Shown one piece after another: positions 1 to 10,841 of a stretch of DNA of 64,000 nt. Every line of letters starts with the position of its first letter. Position 1 is the first letter of the stretch. The notes beneath the pieces are model-generated. The model was not told where the DNA came from. It saw only the letters and a program-made list of their open reading frames with translations, and did no database searches. Source of the DNA: Escherichia phage 235Ecol030PP; sequence record PP355091.1, one strand, 5' to 3'. The position numbers and the translations under genes were made by a program.

Positions 1-550
1 CGTAAGCGTACTGGACATTAGCGTCTTTAAACGTACCTTTAGAGGTATCTATTTCTGCCTTAAAGCCGCCTTTAGCCATAGCATCGGCAAATTCTTTACG
101 GAAAGCCATTGCATCAAGACCTTTCCATGATGATTTATGCTTGGCAAATTCAAGACCAGCGTAGTTGACAGCCTTAGCTAATTTATTATCAATAACCCAT
201 TTACCGGCTTTAGGCACAAACTTCGGGCCTTTTTGTTTAGAGAACAGTTTTAAATTCCAGCGACGAAGGTCACTGTCGGCTTTAACAAAAGCTGCGTCTA
301 AGTTACTAGCAACAACATCTTCAATATGAGCAAATTTAAGTCCGTCAACTTCAATATTTAGATCGTTACGCCAGCGAAGTCCTTCCCAAGCGAAGGCTTT
401 AAAGTCGGAAGCCTTTGTAGCTAAGTACCGTTCAATAGGAGCTGTTTTAGGGTCAAAGCCGTTTCCCGATCGGTAGGTCCACTCATCTTTATTAATGCCT
501 TTGGCCTTTACTATAGAAGCTTCGGCAATAAATTCTTGATAGGTTTTCAT
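1..550 (-). CDS. ipIII: internal head protein, IPIII-like, with capsid-targeting sequence; 3' end lies beyond window start
   Basis: ATG at 550-548; N-terminus reads MKTYQEFIAEA, the T4 internal-protein CTS with a gp21-type I-x-E site; ORF open to position 1. Confidence 0.6.
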   Translation of the reverse strand, partial: MKTYQEFIAEASIVKAKGINKDEWTYRSGNGFDPKTAPIERYLATKASDFKAFAWEGLRWRNDLNIEVDGLKFAHIEDVVASNLDAAFVKADSDLRRWNLKLFSKQKGPKFVPKAGKWVIDNKLAKAVNYAGLEFAKHKSSWKGLDAMAFRKEFADAMAKGGFKAEIDTSKGTFKDANVQYAY

Positions 551-5474: not shown

Positions 5475-5502
5475 TAGTACCATAGAAGAACAGGGATGTA
5501 AA
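5475..5502 (-). promoter_or_regulatory. early sigma70-type promoter (PeSL-like family), copy 2
   Basis: minus strand GTTTAC (fwd 5497-5502) and TACTAT (fwd 5475-5480); shares a ~20-nt core with copies at 1010-1039, 9752-9781, 10115-10144. Confidence 0.5.
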
Positions 5503-5634
5503 CAGTTTTGTGAAAAATTTTTTAAAAAGTTTTGGGGAATTCTAGGGCAAGGAGGGGAAATTAAAGGATAGGATAATATATTATAAAGGGTAGAAACTAA
5601 ATGATGCCTAGAGAGGCCTGGAAAGGCCTAGATA

Positions 5635-5661
5635 CCAAAAAGCCCCAACCTTTTGGTCGGG
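5635..5661 (-). terminator. rho-independent terminator, minus strand
   Basis: minus RNA CCCGACC-AAAA-GGUUGGG stem-loop followed by UUUUU; near-copy at 6193-6221. Confidence 0.6.
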
Positions 5662-5671
5662 ACTAAGAATA

Positions 5672-6144
5672 TTATTTGATTTGTTTAGCAGACCAAATGC
5701 GGTCTTTAATAATTTTTTGGATGTCTTCAACATACTCAAGAGAATGAGCATGTGGGTTATCTTTAAAGCTATGAGCACGAGCTAGCTTTTGGCCTTCAGT
5801 TTTGATTACTAAAAGCTCTTTAAGGATAGCTTCATATTTGGAGATAATTCCTTTAACGATATTTTTTCTTGTGCGACTTTAGGATCTGCTTTAGGAGCAG
5901 GTTTACCCGAAGCCTTTGCAAAAGCAGCGCCAGTAGCAACTAAACTTTTCCAGGCCATACTAACTGCATTTCCCGTAAATCCTTCCGCTTTCATGTCGCG
6001 TGCGAACTGGAATCGTGATTCATCAGAAGCATCTTTGTAAGAATATTTACCCGCTGCAATGGCTGCTTTTGCGACAGCTTGAATTTCGGTGCTAGATGCT
6101 TCATTTAACACCGCTTCATTTAAAAATTGAGTATATGATTTCAT
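5672..6144 (-). pseudogene. CTS-bearing internal-protein-like gene interrupted by frameshift at A6 run
   Basis: ATG 6144, N-terminus MKSYTQFLNEAVLNEA; frame ends at 5809; a second frame continues plausibly to stop 5672 beside terminator; frames meet at fwd T6 run 5862-5867. Confidence 0.5.
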
Positions 6145-6184
6145 CTTATTTCCTGTTTTAATTCGTGGTTTTAATATACTACTA

Positions 6185-6192
6185 TATTTATA
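6185..6192 (-). promoter_or_regulatory. late promoter TATAAATA, minus strand
   Basis: fwd TATTTATA; about 40 nt upstream of ATG 6144. Confidence 0.5.
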
Positions 6193-6221
6193 CCAAAAAG
6201 CCCCAACCTTTCGGTCGGGGC
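6193..6221 (-). terminator. rho-independent terminator, minus strand
   Basis: minus RNA GCCCCGACC-GAAA-GGUUGGGGC with one G.U, followed by UUUUU. Confidence 0.65.
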
Positions 6222-6527
6222 TAAGCCTTGCGGCAACCTTGTCGGGGTTCCACCTGCTAAGGCAAGTGTTTGTACGAAACGCCGGGATTCGAACCCGGTT
6301 ATTAAGCAGTTGACGCTACTCAATATTTTTAAAAGGCCATATCTCGACCATATCCGAACGTTCCGTCAAAAACGCTACTCGGTTTACGGCAAAGATATTT
6401 CCTCGAATCGATAATTCGGTGCGCCGTTTCTGCTGTGATAGTAAAGAGCCAGAACACAGTAAAACTGTGGGAGGAAACTATACTCCAGGGAACATCAGTC
6501 CGACGACTTACCGGTAGCGACCCGGTT
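6222..6527 (-). ncRNA. probable stable small RNA(s) downstream of tRNA-Arg, T4 species 1 / species 2 type
   Basis: no ORF of 60 aa or more; tRNA-like T-arm CCGGGTTCGAATCCCGG (fwd ~6283-6299); ends at terminator 6193-6221; boundaries not determined. Confidence 0.3.
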
Positions 6528-6529
6528 TC

Positions 6530-6880
6530 TTAGTATTCTTTTAAAGCATCAACCTGTTCACGACGTTTACGCCATAAATCAATTACTTCATACGCAGATT
6601 CAGCATTTCGAATTGGACGGCATTTATATAAAGACTTGTGATTTTGATATTGTGTAGATAACGGAATTTTATCTAAAAGGTCTTTACGTTCAAAATATTC
6701 GTAACCATCTAAACCAAATGAACGATTTTTGAGAAATTGCCAATGACCATATTCGTTTTCGACATAAACATAATCTGCATGCTGATAAAGCAAATTAATT
6801 ACACGTTCAGAAATAACAGTATCATTATGATTAAAATAGAATGTTAAATCATGAACTACTAAATAAACATTACCTTTCAT
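6530..6880 (-). CDS. hypothetical protein between stable RNA region and tRNA-Arg
   Basis: 116 aa, ATG at 6880 with GAGGAAA RBS. Confidence 0.6.
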   Translation of the reverse strand: MKGNVYLVVHDLTFYFNHNDTVISERVINLLYQHADYVYVENEYGHWQFLKNRSFGLDGYEYFERKDLLDKIPLSTQYQNHKSLYKCRPIRNAESAYEVIDLWRKRREQVDALKEY

Positions 6881-6898
6881 ATTTTCCTCACTTATAAT

Positions 6899-6974
6899 TG
6901 GTCGAGGCAGTAGGGATCGAACCTACGACCCAGGACTTAGAAGGTCCTTGCTCTTCCTTCTGAGCTATGCCCCG
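6899..6974 (-). tRNA. tRNA-Arg (anticodon UCU), CCA encoded
   Basis: cloverleaf read by hand; T-arm GTAGG-TTCGATC-CCTAC; anticodon loop CUUCUAA. Confidence 0.85.
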
Positions 6975-6977
6975 TAA

Positions 6978-7643
6978 TTAAAATTTCATTTTTCGACCTT
7001 TAAACCATCCTTCTGGAATTGGGTCAGTTTTCTTAATACGTTTAGAAACTTTTTCATCTAATGAATGAATCCACATCATACCAAATTGGGAATTCTTTTC
7101 GCCCTGTTGATGTTTATTTCTGGCGTGAGATTCTTTCATTTTATTAATAGTTTCAGGAGTATGATGCTTATTTAAAAATCTGCTATTATTTAAAAATTTT
7201 TCCCTGTATTCAGGAGTTGACCACAAGCGTTTAAATACATTTGAACCATGTTTACGATATTTTTCTTGAAGTAAAATATCATTTTTAAAACGTGACTTAA
7301 ACGATTTAGCTCCTTTTAAGCTAGCATCTTTCTTCTGGTTTAGCATCCCAGGAATATTTACATGATCCCATCCACCTTCACCACCAAGTTTTAAATTATA
7401 CACATCTGGTCTATTTAAAAACTCTTCTGTGACAATATTTTTCTCGGCTTCAAGCATAGATTCTTTATCGTCAAAGAACTCTAATATTTCTTTAGAAAAA
7501 TTTTCTATACCATACTTATCTTGGGCTCTTTTTAATAATTTACCAGAACCCATATATCCATCATCTAAATTTTCGGTAGAATGAGCGCCTATATAGATTT
7601 TATTATTAATTTTATTTGTTATTTTATAAATGTAATGGAACAT
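6978..7643 (-). mobile_element. segB: GIY-YIG homing endonuclease SegB within the tRNA cluster
   Basis: 221 aa; N-terminal YIYKITNKINNKIYIGAHS GIY-YIG motif; located between tRNA-Arg and tRNA-Ile as in T4. Confidence 0.85.
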
Positions 7644-7684
7644 AAATATCTCCTATTTCTAAGAGTATTTATGTTCTCAAAATA

Positions 7685-7756
7685 TGGCCCTGGGTGGAAT
7701 TGAACCACCATCTGGCGATTATGAGTCGCTTGCTTGAACCTTCCAGCTACAGGGCC
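7685..7756 (-). tRNA. tRNA-Ile (anticodon CAU; Met by anticodon alone)
   Basis: acceptor GGCCCTG/CAGGGCC, T-arm GGTGG-TTCAATT-CCACC, anticodon loop CUCAUAA. Confidence 0.8.
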
Positions 7757-7762
7757 TTGATA

Positions 7763-7835
7763 TGCTGATTGACGGAATCGAACCGCCGACGTCCTCATTA
7801 CAAGTGAGGTGCTCTACCTACTGAGCTAAATCAGC
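7763..7835 (-). tRNA. tRNA-Thr (anticodon UGU)
   Basis: D-arm GCTC-AGTAGGTA-GAGC, anticodon loop CUUGUAA, T-loop TTCGATT. Confidence 0.85.
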
Positions 7836-7842
7836 GAAATTA

Positions 7843-7929
7843 CGGAGGCGATAGGATTTGAACCTATGAGTCGCCGGAGCGACTGCCGGTTTTCAAGACC
7901 GGTGCATTAAACCACTCTGCCACGCCTCC
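7843..7929 (-). tRNA. tRNA-Ser (anticodon UGA), long variable arm
   Basis: acceptor GGAGGCG/CGCCTCC, anticodon loop CUUGAAA, T-loop TTCAAAT. Confidence 0.85.
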
Positions 7930-7931
7930 AG

Positions 7932-8005
7932 TCTCCGTGGCAGGATTTGAACCTACGACATTCTGCTCCCAAAGCAGACGCTCTACCAAACTGAGCTACA
8001 CGGAG
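7932..8005 (-). tRNA. tRNA-Pro (anticodon UGG)
   Basis: D-arm GCTC-AGTTTGGTA-GAGC, anticodon loop UUUGGGA. Confidence 0.85.
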
Positions 8006-8017
8006 TAAATTAAATTT

Positions 8018-8089
<72 letters not shown>

Positions 8090-8095
8090 AAACTT

Positions 8096-8182
8096 TGGTA
8101 CGAGAAGTGGGACTCGAACCCACAAGGAAATCATTCCGCAGCATTTTAAGTGCTGTGTCTTTACCAATTTGACCATTCTCGC
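8096..8182 (-). tRNA. tRNA-Leu (anticodon UAA), long variable arm, CCA encoded
   Basis: anticodon loop CUUAAAA, T-arm GTGGG-TTCGAGT-CCCAC, 3' ACCA. Confidence 0.85.
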
Positions 8183-8183
8183 G

Positions 8184-8256
8184 CTGGGAATAAAGGACTC
8201 GAACCTTTGCATCCTGGAATCAAAATCCAGTGCCTTACCAACTTGGCTAATTCCCA
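8184..8256 (-). tRNA. tRNA-Gln (anticodon UUG)
   Basis: acceptor TGGGAAT/ATTCCCA, anticodon loop UUUUGAU, T-loop TTCGAGT. Confidence 0.85.
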
Positions 8257-8342
8257 ATTATTAACAAAGGCTCTTTAGCAAGAACCCTTGATGATAGAGG
8301 GTATTAATCAGTGCGGTATGAGTTAATAATAACAAATAATTC

Positions 8343-8858
8343 TTAAAGCAAATTAATCATTTTAACGGTCGGCAAAACAATTTCTTCTTCAATATAAGCG
8401 AATTCGACGCTTTCAACTACACGTAGGAAATCATAGTCATAGTATTCAGAAGCATGGCCAAGAATATCAATGAGTCCTTGGGATACCTCGTCACCACTAA
8501 TAAAGAACAAGTCGAATACACGCTCTTCATCTTCTTCAGATTTATTACCAAGGTCAACTTCAATATCAAAGACCTTTTTAATAAATTCCGGGGTGAGCTG
8601 ATCAGAGAACAGTCCTTCAACCAAGTATTCATAGATAATAGATGAGCAATCACTGAATGGTGTATTACCACAATAATGTTTAGCTTTGGTACTAGAATGA
8701 CGATTCTTAAATTTCTTCAAGAGATATTTAAACTGTTGAAGCTCATGCTCTTCTACGCCAAACAATGTTTTGGTTTTATAGTTGTCACCGTCATTTTCCC
8801 AAGTAGTGACATCAATTACATAGCCCTTAGGAATTGTACTGCCTAAACGAATATTCAT
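8343..8858 (-). CDS. hypothetical acidic protein
   Basis: ATG at 8858 (MNIRLGSTIPKG); track ORF starts at TTG 8894. Confidence 0.55.
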   Translation of the reverse strand: MNIRLGSTIPKGYVIDVTTWENDGDNYKTKTLFGVEEHELQQFKYLLKKFKNRHSSTKAKHYCGNTPFSDCSSIIYEYLVEGLFSDQLTPEFIKKVFDIEVDLGNKSEEDEERVFDLFFISGDEVSQGLIDILGHASEYYDYDFLRVVESVEFAYIEEEIVLPTVKMINLL

Positions 8859-8862
8859 TTGC

Positions 8863-9153
8863 TCACCGTACCATATTAATGTAAGTATATTCAATACAAC
8901 GTAATTTCAAATGATTCTTGAAAATATCATATTCAAGAGGACCTTTTTCTGTTTCAATAAAGAAATCAAAATTTACTGTATTAAATTTACGGTCTTCCTT
9001 CACTAATTTAACTTGAGAAGATGAACGGTCAACATAAACCTTTTCAACTTCAAAACATGTTAAAACGCCATAATCATCAATCAAGGCTTTAGCCGCGTCT
9101 TGATCATATTTATATCCATTTTCAACGGACGATACTTTAGCATAAAGAATCAT
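8863..9153 (-). CDS. hypothetical protein
   Basis: ATG at 9153; contiguous with flanking genes on the same strand. Confidence 0.5.
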   Translation of the reverse strand: MILYAKVSSVENGYKYDQDAAKALIDDYGVLTCFEVEKVYVDRSSSQVKLVKEDRKFNTVNFDFFIETEKGPLEYDIFKNHLKLRCIEYTYINMVR

Positions 9154-9155
9154 TA

Positions 9156-9536
9156 TCAACCTTCATCAACAATAGTATGAGTGTGGGCATTTACAATTTG
9201 CCACCAATCAAAGCGATTAGAACCATACATTGGTTTGTTCTCATTTTCTTTAATGATATCACGGAGTTCATCTTCAGTAGCGGCTTTCGCGATTAAATCA
9301 GCATACCCACCGCGAGGATAATAATTATCACCCGCAAAAAGTAAAAAGTTCGGTTTAATATTATTGAACTCTTCAAGAGTAATAACTTTTCCTGTCGGTT
9401 GAACAATCTCTACATATTTATATCCTAATTTTTGAGCAGCATCTACTGCTTCAAGCAGGGTATCATGAGCCCATCCAATTTGGCAATCTGGCTTTTCAGA
9501 TGGATTAGCCTGATAATCCGCGTACACTTTATACAT
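9156..9536 (-). CDS. hypothetical protein
   Basis: ATG at 9536 with AAAGGTGA RBS; track ORF begins at TTG 9575. Confidence 0.55.
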   Translation of the reverse strand: MYKVYADYQANPSEKPDCQIGWAHDTLLEAVDAAQKLGYKYVEIVQPTGKVITLEEFNNIKPNFLLFAGDNYYPRGGYADLIAKAATEDELRDIIKENENKPMYGSNRFDWWQIVNAHTHTIVDEG

Positions 9537-9537
9537 T

Positions 9538-9723
9538 CTATTCACCTTTAGAAATTTTATCCATAACGATAGCAATTAAACCAATTAAAAATGCTACTAC
9601 AAGTGAAAATACATTTTCTGCTGTAGTTAATAATCCGCATATAAATCCAACAAACATTGAAAAACTAAATGCAGAAGCAGAAATTGCAATAGCAACATTT
9701 CGAATTAATTCACAACGTTTCAT
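9538..9723 (-). CDS. small hydrophobic protein, two predicted TM helices
   Basis: 61 aa, ATG 9723 with GAGGAG RBS directly downstream of early promoter copy 3. Confidence 0.5.
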   Translation of the reverse strand: MKRCELIRNVAIAISASAFSFSMFVGFICGLLTTAENVFSLVVAFLIGLIAIVMDKISKGE

Positions 9724-9751
9724 TTTATTCTCCTCAGTAGTTGATAGGGTA

Positions 9752-9781
9752 ATAGTATCACAACTAAAACCCTATGTAAAC
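9752..9781 (-). promoter_or_regulatory. early promoter with stem-loop (PeSL-like cassette), copy 3
   Basis: GTTTAC (fwd 9776-9781), TACTAT (fwd 9752-9757); inverted repeat ATAGGGT/ACCCTAT brackets the -10. Confidence 0.5.
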
Positions 9782-9799
9782 AACTTTGTGAAAAATTTA

Positions 9800-10084
9800 T
9801 TACAAAAGATTTTTAGCAATAATTTTAAGCTGAGCTACTGAAATATGCTTGGCTTTAAACAAAGCAGTTTCTTCAGCAGGGGAGATAATGATTGTAGCAC
9901 CATCTTTCTTAGCGGACCATCCATCACCCAGGTAAACAGTACCTTTAACTTCTTCGCCATCAACCAGGCTAATCATCGGTTTACCTTCACGTCCTTTGTT
10001 TGCTTTAATAACTTCAGAAGTAAGGGTCGCTTCAGTCAAAGTAGAAGCGTTAGTGGTTGAAGTGAATTCTTGATAAGTTTTCAT
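9800..10084 (-). CDS. ipI: internal protein at the ipI position, CTS-bearing, divergent mature sequence
   Basis: 94 aa; N-terminus MKTYQEFTSTTNASTLTEA; sits immediately downstream of 57B as ipI does in T4. Confidence 0.6.
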   Translation of the reverse strand: MKTYQEFTSTTNASTLTEATLTSEVIKANKGREGKPMISLVDGEEVKGTVYLGDGWSAKKDGATIIISPAEETALFKAKHISVAQLKIIAKNLL

Positions 10085-10114
10085 TTTATTTTCCTAATTA
10101 ATTTTGATGAGGTA

Positions 10115-10144
10115 ATAGTATCACTACCTCATCAGCATGTAAAC
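10115..10144 (-). promoter_or_regulatory. early promoter with stem-loop (PeSL-like cassette), copy 4
   Basis: GTTTAC (fwd 10139-10144), TACTAT (fwd 10115-10120); inverted repeat TGATGAGGTA/TACCTCATCA brackets the -10. Confidence 0.5.
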
Positions 10145-10156
10145 AACTTTGTGAAA

Positions 10157-10841
<685 letters not shown>

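What the first reader, a model, noticed from the sequence alone, without database searches (positions are those of the whole stretch)
8343..9723. Four-gene early operon of uncharacterised proteins between ipI and the tRNA cluster
Early promoter copy 3 drives a 61-aa two-helix membrane peptide followed by three ORFs of 126, 96 and 171 aa with tightly abutting starts and stops. None has a recognisable motif. Position between two PeSL-bounded, CTS-rich loci and early expression fit host-takeover or anti-defence functions.
Basis: inference. Interest (0 to 1): 0.45.

Follow-up and report, generated by a model that had tools for sequence, protein, structure and literature searches.

The report
T-even phage trna.4–trna.2 early gene cassette
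The four small genes are real, tightly packed and probably early-expressed. They are the long-catalogued, still function-less "trna.4 / trna.3 / trna.2" genes of T4-like phages plus a fourth gene that T4 itself has lost, so the block is ordinary, although nobody yet knows what it does.

Summary
On the minus strand, a T4-type early promoter inside a stem-loop (9790..9740) precedes four abutting ORFs of 61, 126, 96 and 171 aa (9723..8343). The window is a Tequatrovirus.

- ORFs 1-3 are orthologues of T4 trna.4 (100% aa identity), trna.3 (57-63%) and trna.2 (about 87-91%).
- ORF 4 is a conserved Straboviridae gene (573 phage records, including T2). T4 lost it by a clean deletion.
- All four are under purifying selection (dN/dS 0-0.42).
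- In T4, trna.2 and trna.3 are early at RNA and protein level, trna.4 is early at RNA level, and all three are dispensable on a lab host.

New details:
- The C-terminal half of trna.3 is a roughly 65-aa "YYPxGG…WWQIVD" domain. It occurs as a stand-alone small protein in at least 549 sequence clusters and is almost exclusively viral.
- The tRNA cluster has its own MotA-type promoter overlapping the ORF 4 stop codon.

An anti-defence or host-takeover role is plausible: the neighbours are ipI and 57B/Acb1, the proteins are acidic, and T4 Trna.2 was enriched in a DRT1 pulldown. It is not demonstrated. The block counts as known dark matter of modest interest.

The parts
9740..9790 (-). PeSL-type early promoter. 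The UP/-35 element is CACAAAGTTGTTTAC, the extended -10 is GTGA-TACTAT (9781..9752), and a stem-loop (about 9785..9740) encloses the -10.
   Evidence: There are two exact copies in the window (0 expected by chance). The fold has dG -16.9 kcal/mol, z -3.7.
9538..9723 (-). trna.4 orthologue: a 61-aa peptide with two predicted transmembrane helices. A GAGGAG Shine-Dalgarno sequence lies 6 nt upstream.
   Evidence: PHROG 1692, E 6e-35. 100% aa identity to T4, AR1 and SA21RB with dN = 0 and dS 0.05-0.10. At least 99% identical in 428 phage records.
9156..9536 (-). trna.3 orthologue: 126 aa, acidic (net charge -8). It has a lineage-variable N-terminal alpha/beta domain (1-58) and a widespread C-terminal 'FLLFAGxxYYPxGG…DWWQIV' domain (63-126).
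   Evidence: PHROG 1411, E 9e-56. Homologues and invariant columns. AF2 pLDDT 87, pTM 0.67. C-domain family. dN/dS 0.02-0.30.
8863..9153 (-). trna.2 orthologue, 96 aa.
   Evidence: PHROG 2023, E 5e-47. 45 homologue clusters at 66% identity or more, PF27001. 800 phage records. dN/dS 0.32-0.42. T4 Trna.2 was enriched in a DRT1 pulldown (PMC13275509).
8343..8858 (-). 171-aa acidic protein (net charge -15, pI 4.6) with the invariant motif GY-x7-ENDGDNYKT (residues 12-29). It is absent from T4.
   Evidence: PHROG 2290, E 4e-67. Alignment A2. AF2 pLDDT 88, pTM 0.83. 573 phage records, including T2, Klebsiella, Proteus and Aeromonas phages and the jumbo phage K64-1. The T4 deletion is mapped. dN/dS about 0.11.
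8326..8352 (-). MotA-type middle promoter for the tRNA cluster. The MotA box TTTGCTTTA (8352..8344) overlaps the TAA stop of the 171-aa ORF; a 14-nt spacer follows, then the -10 TATTAT (8331..8326).
   Evidence: Read, where the sequence is invariant in the window, T4 and AR1. The equivalent site is annotated as a middle promoter in SA21RB. Broida & Abelson's middle promoter just upstream of the tRNA cluster is cited in PMC2330249.
9107..9114 (-). Late-promoter-like TATAAATA inside trna.2 (codons 14-16), conserved in T4, AR1 and SA21RB. A second copy at 9415-9422 inside trna.3 is shared only with SA21RB.
   Evidence: Annotated as late promoters in SA21RB.
9800..10153 (-). Upstream neighbour: ipI (10084..9800, carrying the capsid-targeting sequence MKTYQEF) with its own PeSL copy (10153..10115).
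   Evidence: 89% identity to T4 IPI.
6899..8256 (-). Downstream neighbour: eight tRNA genes (Gln, Leu, Gly, Pro, Ser, Thr, a CAU-anticodon tRNA, Arg) interrupted by a segB-like GIY-YIG gene (7643..6978). This is the probable read-through target of the early transcript.
   Evidence: No terminator-like site in 8200-10700.

Best explanation
What it is. This is the conserved T-even 'trna.4 - trna.3 - trna.2 - ORF171' early accessory cassette of a Tequatrovirus.

Shown here:
- Host sigma-70 RNA polymerase has a near-consensus T4 early promoter available, embedded in a PeSL stem-loop.
- The four cistrons are spaced 1-4 nt apart, each with its own Shine-Dalgarno sequence.
- All four are conserved under purifying selection.
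- There is no terminator before the tRNA cluster. That cluster also has a MotA middle promoter overlapping the ORF171 stop codon, and a late-promoter motif lies inside trna.2.

Taken from T4 literature on the orthologues: early RNA for all three, early protein for trna.2 and trna.3, and no fitness cost on knock-down in a lab host.

Inferred. The products are not enzymes of core metabolism. They are small stoichiometric binders that act in the first minutes of infection on host or host-defence components and pay off only on particular hosts.
- One is an extremely conserved 2-TM inner-membrane peptide.
- Three are acidic soluble proteins of novel or unrecognised fold.
- Each probably acts independently rather than as one complex, because the genes have different evolutionary histories and ORF171 can be deleted alone, as in T4.
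For: Identity:
- The region is about 92% identical to the closest listed GenBank phages over 1.6 kb.
- Orthology to the T4, AR1 and SA21RB annotations.
- PHROG hits with E from 1e-35 to 1e-67.

Expression:
- Promoter and PeSL.
- T4 omics classify trna.2 and trna.3 as 'early-RNA_early-Protein' and trna.4 as early RNA.

Real but dispensable genes:
- dN/dS 0-0.42.
- CRISPRi-ART labels all three T4 orthologues 'Not Fit', as it does ipI and 57B.

Accessory behaviour:
- ORF171 is deleted in T4.
- trna.3 exists as two allelic types: 99% identical to SA21RB but 57-63% to T4.
- dS jumps from 0.05 to 0.94 between adjacent genes.
- The ipI slot is a known swap site bounded by conserved flanks (bioRxiv 10.1101/2025.11.20.689424).

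Binder rather than enzyme:
- No Pfam-A, NCBIfam or PDB match.
- Net charges are -15, -8 and -2.4.

Defence link:
- The immediate neighbours are ipI (anti-GmrSD) and 57B/Acb1 (anti-CBASS).
- T4 Trna.2 was one of only two T4 proteins enriched with wild-type DRT1 over the RT-dead mutant.
Against: - No direct functional evidence exists for any of the four.
- The invariant polar motifs argue for a conserved target or ligand rather than a fast-evolving defence protein. These are ENDGDNYKT in ORF171, conserved from Aeromonas to Escherichia phages, and YYPxGG/WWQIVD in trna.3, conserved across hundreds of unrelated phage clusters. They could even be catalytic.
- trna.4 is at least 99% identical in 428 genomes, unlike a typical arms-race gene.
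- An acidic pI is common among T4 early proteins, so it is weak evidence.
- The DRT1 authors did not follow up Trna.2. They noted that it is conserved only in the four phages of their collection most closely related to T4.
- HIDEN-SEQ screens of T4 on several defence systems do not mention these genes in the main text.
Confidence: 0.5

Rival explanations
1. tRNA-linked function. The proteins serve the adjacent phage tRNA cluster. Because they lie on the same primary transcript, they could help process, modify, charge or protect the phage tRNAs, for example against host anticodon nucleases.
For: - No terminator lies between the ORFs and the tRNAs, so co-transcription is likely.
- The ORF171 homologue occupies the same 57B-to-tRNA interval in Aeromonas phage 25.
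- Several unrelated large-phage contigs carry a stand-alone trna.3 C-domain gene next to tRNA clusters: L080 (8 bp from a 10-tRNA cluster), L036, L069 and L077.
- tRNA clusters are themselves counter-defence loci (PMC13096335).
Against: - 95 of 117 C-domain loci have no tRNA in the roughly 1-15 kb of DNA held per locus.
- Their larger neighbours are heterogeneous: helicases, exonucleases, terminases.
- ORF171 homologues in K64-1, Proteus SJ_PmiM and Aeromonas AS-szw have no tRNA within 3-3.5 kb.
- T4 lost ORF171 yet still makes its eight tRNAs.
- The tRNA cluster has its own middle promoter.
- The proteins are acidic and have no RNA-binding or nucleotidyl-transfer motif.
Confidence: 0.12
2. 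Phage-versus-phage or envelope function. The 2-TM peptide, possibly together with its partners, would alter the inner membrane early in infection. It could give superinfection exclusion or immunity, or modulate lysis timing, like T4 Imm, Sp or RI.
For: - trna.4 is a 61-aa two-helix membrane peptide made from the first cistron of an early transcript.
- Its near-absolute conservation fits a conserved phage or envelope target better than a variable defence protein.
Against: - There is no sequence similarity to Imm, Sp, RI or any other family.
- The T4 trna.4 protein was not classified in the proteome time course.
- Knock-down has no fitness effect in single infection, although exclusion phenotypes would not show in that assay.
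- The idea says nothing about the three soluble proteins.
Confidence: 0.1
3. One or more of the soluble proteins is a small-molecule binder or enzyme that acts on a conserved metabolite or immune signal (a 'sponge' or hydrolase) rather than a protein-protein inhibitor.
For: - There are invariant polar and aromatic clusters. ORF171 has E21-N-D-G-D-N-Y-K-T29, G64-N65 and R146. The trna.3 C-domain has F-x-G-x-x-Y-Y-P-x-G-G-x-x-D and W-x-x-I-V.
- The C-domain is a roughly 65-aa stand-alone protein in at least 549 clusters, a size typical of oligomeric phage sponges.
- The neighbouring 57B/Acb1 degrades cyclic-nucleotide signals.
Against: - No sequence match to any solved structure.
- No oligomer or pocket analysis could be done with the tools available.
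Confidence: 0.15
4. The ORFs are evolutionary filler with no present function.
For: Dispensable in T4 on a lab host. ORF171 was lost from T4.
Against: - Purifying selection acts on all four.
- They are conserved in 573-800 phage genomes across genera.
- T4 Trna.2 and Trna.3 proteins are detected early in infection.
Confidence: 0.03

Closest known systems
Phage T4 ORFs trna.4 (NP_049748), trna.3 (NP_049747) and trna.2 (NP_049746), between ipI and tRNA-Gln
   Same: Same position, order, strand and tight spacing, with the same early promoter context. Protein identity to T4 is 100% (trna.4), 57-63% (trna.3) and about 87-91% (trna.2). They fall in the same PHROG families (PMC11879866 supplement).
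   Different: The window's trna.3 is the shorter 126-aa allele (T4 has 136 aa), with a divergent N-terminal domain. The window also carries a fourth cistron that T4 lacks.
T2/RB32/AR1-type 171-aa ORF (AR1_142; PHROG 2290)
   Same: Orthologous: 83-100% identity in Tequatroviruses and 30-46% in Klebsiella, Proteus and Aeromonas Straboviridae. It sits in the same slot downstream of 57B.
   Different: Nothing distinguishes the window's copy. It is 100% identical to a protein of Escherichia phage 235Ecol030PP.
PeSL (promoter-early stem-loop) cassettes of T4-type phages (Arbiol et al. 2010, PMC2839356; Comeau et al. 2014, PMC4122927)
   Same: An early promoter nested in a stem-loop, repeated at the borders of variable gene modules. 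Two exact copies flank ipI.
   Different: Only the upstream border of the four-gene block is a PeSL. The downstream border is a MotA middle promoter and the tRNA cluster.
Neighbouring T4 counter-defence genes ipI (anti-GmrSD type IV restriction) and 57B/Acb1 (anti-CBASS phosphodiesterase)
   Same: Same hyperplastic interval, early or injected timing, and dispensable on lab strains.
   Different: No homology. The four ORFs have no capsid-targeting sequence, no 2H-phosphoesterase motif, and no demonstrated target.
Small phage inhibitor proteins that appear among weak structural neighbours (phi29/VMY22 p56 Ung inhibitor, AcrIF9, T4 Dmd)
   Different: These scores are at noise level, cover only 50-55 residues, and give no functional transfer.

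Membership tests
T4 Trna.4 family (PHROG 1692) | A peptide of about 61 aa with two hydrophobic helices, encoded as the first cistron after ipI. | tested here: met
   PHROG E 6e-35 over 1-61/61. 100% aa identity to T4. Hydropathy. Position.
T4 Trna.3 family (PHROG 1411 / PF26894) | Full-length match, including the invariant NFLLFxG…P-GGY-DL…F-WWQI core. | tested here: met
   PHROG E 9e-56 over 1-126. 27 invariant columns in alignments A1 and A3. PF26894 is precomputed on all full-length homologues, but that model is not in the local Pfam copy.
T4 Trna.2 family (PHROG 2023 / PF27001) | Full-length sequence match of about 96 aa, located downstream of trna.3. | tested here: met
   PHROG E 5e-47. 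About 87-91% identity to T4. PF27001 is precomputed on the homologues.
PHROG 2290 (T2-type ORF downstream of trna.2) | Full-length match with the invariant GY…ENDGDNYKT, GN and RV motifs. | tested here: met
   PHROG E 4e-67. Alignment A2. tblastn finds it in 573 phage records.
PeSL regulatory cassette | A T4 early-promoter consensus embedded in a stable stem-loop, repeated at module borders. | tested here: met
   Transcription start and termination activity were not tested.
T-even internal proteins (IPI/IPII/IPIII class) | N-terminal capsid-targeting sequence (MKTYQEF…, cleaved at LxE). | tested here: not met
   A motif scan of all six frames finds the sequence only in ipI (10084) and in an IPIII-like ORF at 550.
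Known anti-defence protein families (Acb1/2H phosphoesterase, DNA mimics such as Ocr/ArdA/Arn, nucleotide sponges, Acr proteins, antitoxin-like Dmd) | Detectable sequence or fold homology to a characterised member. | tested here: not met
Known anti-defence protein families | Neutralises a defined defence system in vivo. | not testable with these tools
   The only lead is enrichment of T4 Trna.2 with DRT1 in a pulldown (PMC13275509).
Early (sigma-70, pre-MotA) transcription unit of T4-type phages | Transcript and protein appear within the first minutes of infection. | not testable with these tools
   The window has the promoter consensus. The T4 orthologues are classified as early. No expression data exist for this phage.

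The most novel reading that the evidence does not exclude
At least one of the four products is a new kind of phage counter-defence or host-control factor.
- The most novel candidate is the C-terminal 'YYPxGG…WWQIVD' module of trna.3. It could be a widespread small inhibitor or ligand sponge with a conserved target.
- In parallel, Trna.2 may be a direct binder (inhibitor or trigger) of the reverse-transcriptase defence DRT1.
- ORF171 may be an acidic protein of new fold with a conserved ENDGDNYKT binding loop.
Probability: 0.3. Interest if true: 0.65.

Novelty: already known. Interest (0 to 1): 0.28.

Why it matters
As a discovery it matters little. The genes have been catalogued since the T4 tRNA region was sequenced (Broida & Abelson 1985, cited in PMC2330249), and they sit in hundreds of annotated genomes as 'hypothetical protein'.

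Their value is as a well-defined target list:
- They are early-expressed, conserved and dispensable.
- They lie directly beside two proven counter-defence genes.
- They are cheap to test: four short ORFs, with existing T4 genetics, CRISPRi-ART and HIDEN-SEQ libraries.

If the trna.3 C-domain has a function, that function would annotate hundreds of small phage proteins at once.

Tried and rejected
1. Sequence-family assignment. Pfam-A, NCBIfam and PDB phmmer/hmmsearch with single sequences and profiles gave only noise. The GFP-sensor hit to ORF171 is just the GFP 'DDGNYKT' beta-hairpin.
3. Guilt by association for the trna.3 C-domain. 134 larger neighbours from 50 dereplicated viral loci show no recurrent partner; they are replication genes, nucleases and terminases.
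4. Domain fusions. One XRE-HTH fusion (P0116). A 2031-aa 'hit' (P0164) looks like a spurious repeat match: it is 12 short partial matches covering only the first 30 positions of the domain.
5. tRNA linkage. This is not general.
6. Paralogues in the window: none.
7. A capsid-targeting sequence on the four ORFs: none.
8. An Rfam RNA in the region: none.
It was replaced by a degenerate DNA pattern.
10. Literature. Nothing functional on trna.2, trna.3 or trna.4 beyond the DRT1 pulldown, the expression class and the knock-down fitness data. The T4 genome review (PMC150520) is not held.
11. trna.2 and trna.4 could not be modelled because of the structure-prediction cap.
Full report
**What is there**

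The window is a T4-like phage (Tequatrovirus). Positions 8200-9800 match 864 GenBank phage records, the best listed at about 92% identity. All genes in this part of the window lie on the minus strand.

The gene order, reading along the minus strand, is:
- gene 1 (dNMP kinase), 57A, 57B;
- ipI (10084..9800);
- the four ORFs of the finding;
- eight tRNA genes between 8256 and 6899, interrupted by a segB-like GIY-YIG gene (7643..6978).

- 61 aa (9723..9538);
- 126 aa (9536..9156);
- 96 aa (9153..8863);
- 171 aa (8858..8343).

Only 1, 2 and 4 nt separate each stop from the next ATG, and a purine-rich Shine-Dalgarno sequence precedes each start.

**Promoter and transcription unit**

A T4 early-promoter consensus, GTTTAC-N14-GTGA-TACTAT, lies at 9781..9752. 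Its extended form CACAAAGTTGTTTAC…TACTAT occurs exactly twice in the 64 kb, with none expected in shuffles. One copy precedes this block and the other precedes ipI (10153..10115).

Each copy is embedded in a stable hairpin (dG -16.9 and -20.5 kcal/mol; z -3.7 and -5.8). This is the 'promoter-early stem-loop' (PeSL) architecture described for T4-type phages (PMC2839356, PMC4122927).

No terminator-like site lies between 10700 and 8200. Three further signals are present:
- The last stop codon is overlapped by a MotA box, TTTGCTTTA (8352..8344), followed after 14 nt by TATTAT (8331..8326). This stretch is invariant in the window, T4 and AR1. It corresponds to the middle promoter that Broida & Abelson placed just upstream of the T4 tRNA cluster, as cited in PMC2330249.
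- A late-promoter motif, TATAAATA, inside the 96-aa ORF (9114..9107) is conserved in T4, AR1 and SA21RB.
- A second TATAAATA inside the 126-aa ORF (9422..9415) is shared only with SA21RB.

The 'operon' is therefore better described as the protein-coding 5' part of an early transcript that most likely runs on into the tRNA genes. Those genes also have their own middle and late promoters. This last step is inferred, not shown.

**Identity of the genes**

ORFs 1-3 are the orthologues of T4 trna.4, trna.3 and trna.2.
- Identity to T4 is 100% for trna.4, 57-63% for trna.3 and about 87-91% for trna.2, depending on alignment method.
- They fall in PHROG families 1692, 1411 and 2023.
- trna.3 comes as two alleles. 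The window's 126-aa form is 99% identical to SA21RB.

ORF 4 (PHROG 2290) is missing from T4. It is present in T2, AR1, RB32-like phages and 573 phage records in all. These include Klebsiella, Proteus and Aeromonas Straboviridae and the jumbo phage K64-1.

A three-way DNA alignment shows that T4 carries a clean deletion. It fuses the end of trna.2 to the last ~20 nt of ORF 4 and keeps the MotA box. T4 is therefore the derived state.

The 171-aa protein is 100% identical to a protein of Escherichia phage 235Ecol030PP.

**Are they real genes?**

Yes.
- Pairwise dN/dS against AR1, SA21RB and T4 is 0 for trna.4 (dS 0.05-0.10), 0.02-0.30 for trna.3, 0.32-0.42 for trna.2 and 0.11-0.12 for ORF 4.
- trna.4 is at least 99% identical at the protein level in 428 phage records.
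- dS jumps between neighbours: 0.05-0.10, then 0.17-0.22, 0.16, and 0.74-0.94, with ipI at 0.62 and 57B at 0.08-0.12. This is the signature of modular recombination in this hyperplastic interval.
- In T4, trna.2 and trna.3 are classed 'early-RNA_early-Protein' and trna.4 as early RNA (PMC9697503 supplements).
- dCas13d knock-down of each gives 'Not Fit', meaning no fitness effect on a lab host. ipI and 57B behave the same way (PMC11879866 supplement).

**What the proteins look like**

- trna.4 is a 61-aa peptide with two hydrophobic helices between charged termini.
- trna.3 has net charge -8 and pI 4.7. ORF 4 has net charge -15 and pI 4.6. trna.2 has net charge -2.4.
- The ORF 4 AF2 model is confident (pLDDT 88, pTM 0.83). 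It has a beta-hairpin (12-35) carrying the invariant E21-N-D-G-D-N-Y-K-T29 turn, five helices, and a closing strand (147-156).
- The trna.3 AF2 model (pLDDT 87, pTM 0.67) has two small alpha/beta domains, 1-58 and 63-126.
- BFVD returns only uncharacterised phage proteins for ORF 4.
- Pfam-A, NCBIfam, and PDB sequence and profile searches are empty.

**A widespread domain inside trna.3**

I ran an exhaustive HMM search with the trna.3 profile over 1.84 billion representative proteins. It found 549 clusters at E ≤ 1e-3.
- Nearly all of the 150 best hits listed are 55-110-aa proteins that match only the C-terminal domain.
- The consensus is [YF]-h-L-F-a-G-x-x-Y-Y-P-x-G-G-x-x-D … D-W-W-Q-I-V-D-x-x-T-x-x-I-V (A4).
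- The family maps only to function-less PHROGs (1411, 17649, 4811, 5638) and has no Pfam-A or PDB relative.
Essentially every locus (117 or more) carried a true domain ORF.
- The same pattern found only 41 loci in 596 Gb of bacterial and archaeal genomes. About 14 of these are real, and most lie on MAG contigs. The domain is therefore essentially viral.
- Its genes sit in arrays of small same-strand ORFs with no recurrent partner.
- One member is fused to an XRE-type HTH.
- Some other T4-like contigs carry an extra stand-alone paralogue just upstream of trna.3. This window does not.

**How it most likely works**

Shown here:
- the cassette is conserved and under purifying selection;
- it carries an early-promoter consensus.

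Known from the T4 orthologues:
- trna.4, trna.3 and trna.2 are transcribed early;
- they are dispensable on lab E. coli.

Inferred:
- It encodes small non-enzymatic binders that act on host or host-defence components very early in infection and matter only on certain hosts.

Supporting context:
- The flanking genes are proven counter-defence factors. IPI acts against GmrSD (PMC12373910). 57B/Acb1 acts against CBASS.
- The ipI slot is a known swap site for type IV restriction inhibitors.
- T4 Trna.2 was one of only two T4 proteins enriched with wild-type DRT1 over the RT-dead mutant, but this was not followed up (PMC13275509).

Against a classic arms-race reading:
- The invariant polar motifs of ORF 4 and the trna.3 C-domain, and the near-absolute conservation of trna.4, point to conserved targets or ligands.

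I put about 0.5 on the accessory host/defence-interaction explanation as a whole, and about 0.3 on at least one of the four being a bona fide new counter-defence factor.

**Rivals**

- A tRNA-linked role (0.12). Co-transcription and some tRNA-adjacent C-domain genes suggest it. It is weakened because 95 of 117 C-domain loci have no tRNA in the DNA held, three distant ORF 4 homologues are tRNA-free nearby, and T4 lost ORF 4.
- An envelope or superinfection-exclusion role for trna.4 (0.10).
- Ligand-binding or enzymatic activity at the invariant motifs (0.15). This overlaps with the main explanation.
- Non-functional filler (0.03). This is contradicted by dN/dS and by protein detection.

**Comparison and novelty**

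Every part of the finding is a member of an already catalogued, function-unknown family:
- T4 trna.2, trna.3 and trna.4;
- the T2-type ORF;
- the PeSL cassette.

The four ORFs fail the defining test for internal proteins, since none has a capsid-targeting sequence. They show no homology to any characterised anti-defence family.

The finding is therefore 'already known' as a feature, with unknown function.

New details from this work:
- the T4 deletion map;
- the two-domain anatomy of trna.3;
- the size and viral restriction of its C-domain family;
- the promoter layout around the ORF 4 stop codon.

Interest is modest (0.28). It would rise substantially if any of the proposed tests gave a host-specific phenotype.

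Noticed in passing
window 8343-8362 versus L003 (T4 NC_000866 72,530-72,640): T4 lacks the 171-aa ORF because of a clean deletion. The deletion fuses the 3' end of trna.2 to the last ~20 nt of the ORF and preserves the MotA box and -10 of the tRNA middle promoter.
   Followed up: yes
window 8343-10612: Synonymous divergence from AR1 and SA21RB changes abruptly between adjacent genes. dS is 0.05-0.10 for trna.4, 0.17-0.22 for trna.3, 0.16 for trna.2, 0.74-0.94 for ORF171, 0.62 for ipI and 0.08-0.12 for 57B. This indicates mosaic recombination with breakpoints at gene borders.
   Followed up: partly
L119:9604-9840, L041:3127-3336, L030:3537-3722, L037:14031-14216, L008:2388-2576: Other T4-like viral contigs carry an additional 61-78-aa stand-alone paralogue of the trna.3 C-domain (MYALFMWSRYYPxGG…) immediately upstream of trna.3. 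This window has no such paralogue.
   Followed up: partly
window 6978-7643 (minus strand): A 221-aa GIY-YIG (segB-like) homing-endonuclease ORF sits inside the tRNA cluster, between tRNA-Arg and the CAU-anticodon tRNA, as in T4. SegB was recently reported to drive segmental amplification of anti-defence loci, including tRNA-Tyr (PMC13096335). This window's cluster has no tRNA-Tyr, tRNA-Asn or tRNA-His, unlike AR1 and SA21RB.
   Followed up: no
window 6530-6880 (minus strand): A 116-aa ORF lies directly downstream of tRNA-Arg, where T4 has the small stable RNAs rnaD and rnaC. The syntenic, same-length AR1_139 is annotated as best matched to phage T2D. Rfam reports only tRNAs in 5500-10300.
   Followed up: no
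window 7685-7756 (minus strand): ARAGORN calls this tRNA-Met (anticodon CAT). The T4 gene at the equivalent position is annotated tRNA-Ile, so it is probably a lysidine-modified AUA reader rather than a Met tRNA.
   Followed up: no
window 2-550 (minus strand): An ORF of at least 183 aa starts with the capsid-targeting sequence MKTYQEFIAEA and is IPIII-like. It is the only other CTS-bearing ORF in the window besides ipI.
   Followed up: no
window 9107-9114 and 9415-9422 (minus strand): Late-promoter motifs TATAAATA are embedded in frame (Tyr-Lys-Tyr) in trna.2 and trna.3. The trna.2 copy is conserved in T4, AR1 and SA21RB and may drive late tRNA transcription. The motif is over-represented in the window as a whole (25 observed, 9.5 expected).
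   Followed up: partly
proteins P0001-P0024 and P0049-P0093: The homologue database lists precomputed Pfam families PF26894 (trna.3) and PF27001 (trna.2). Scans against the local Pfam-A copy returned nothing for these proteins, so the families appear to be newer than that copy. Their names and descriptions could not be read.
   Followed up: no
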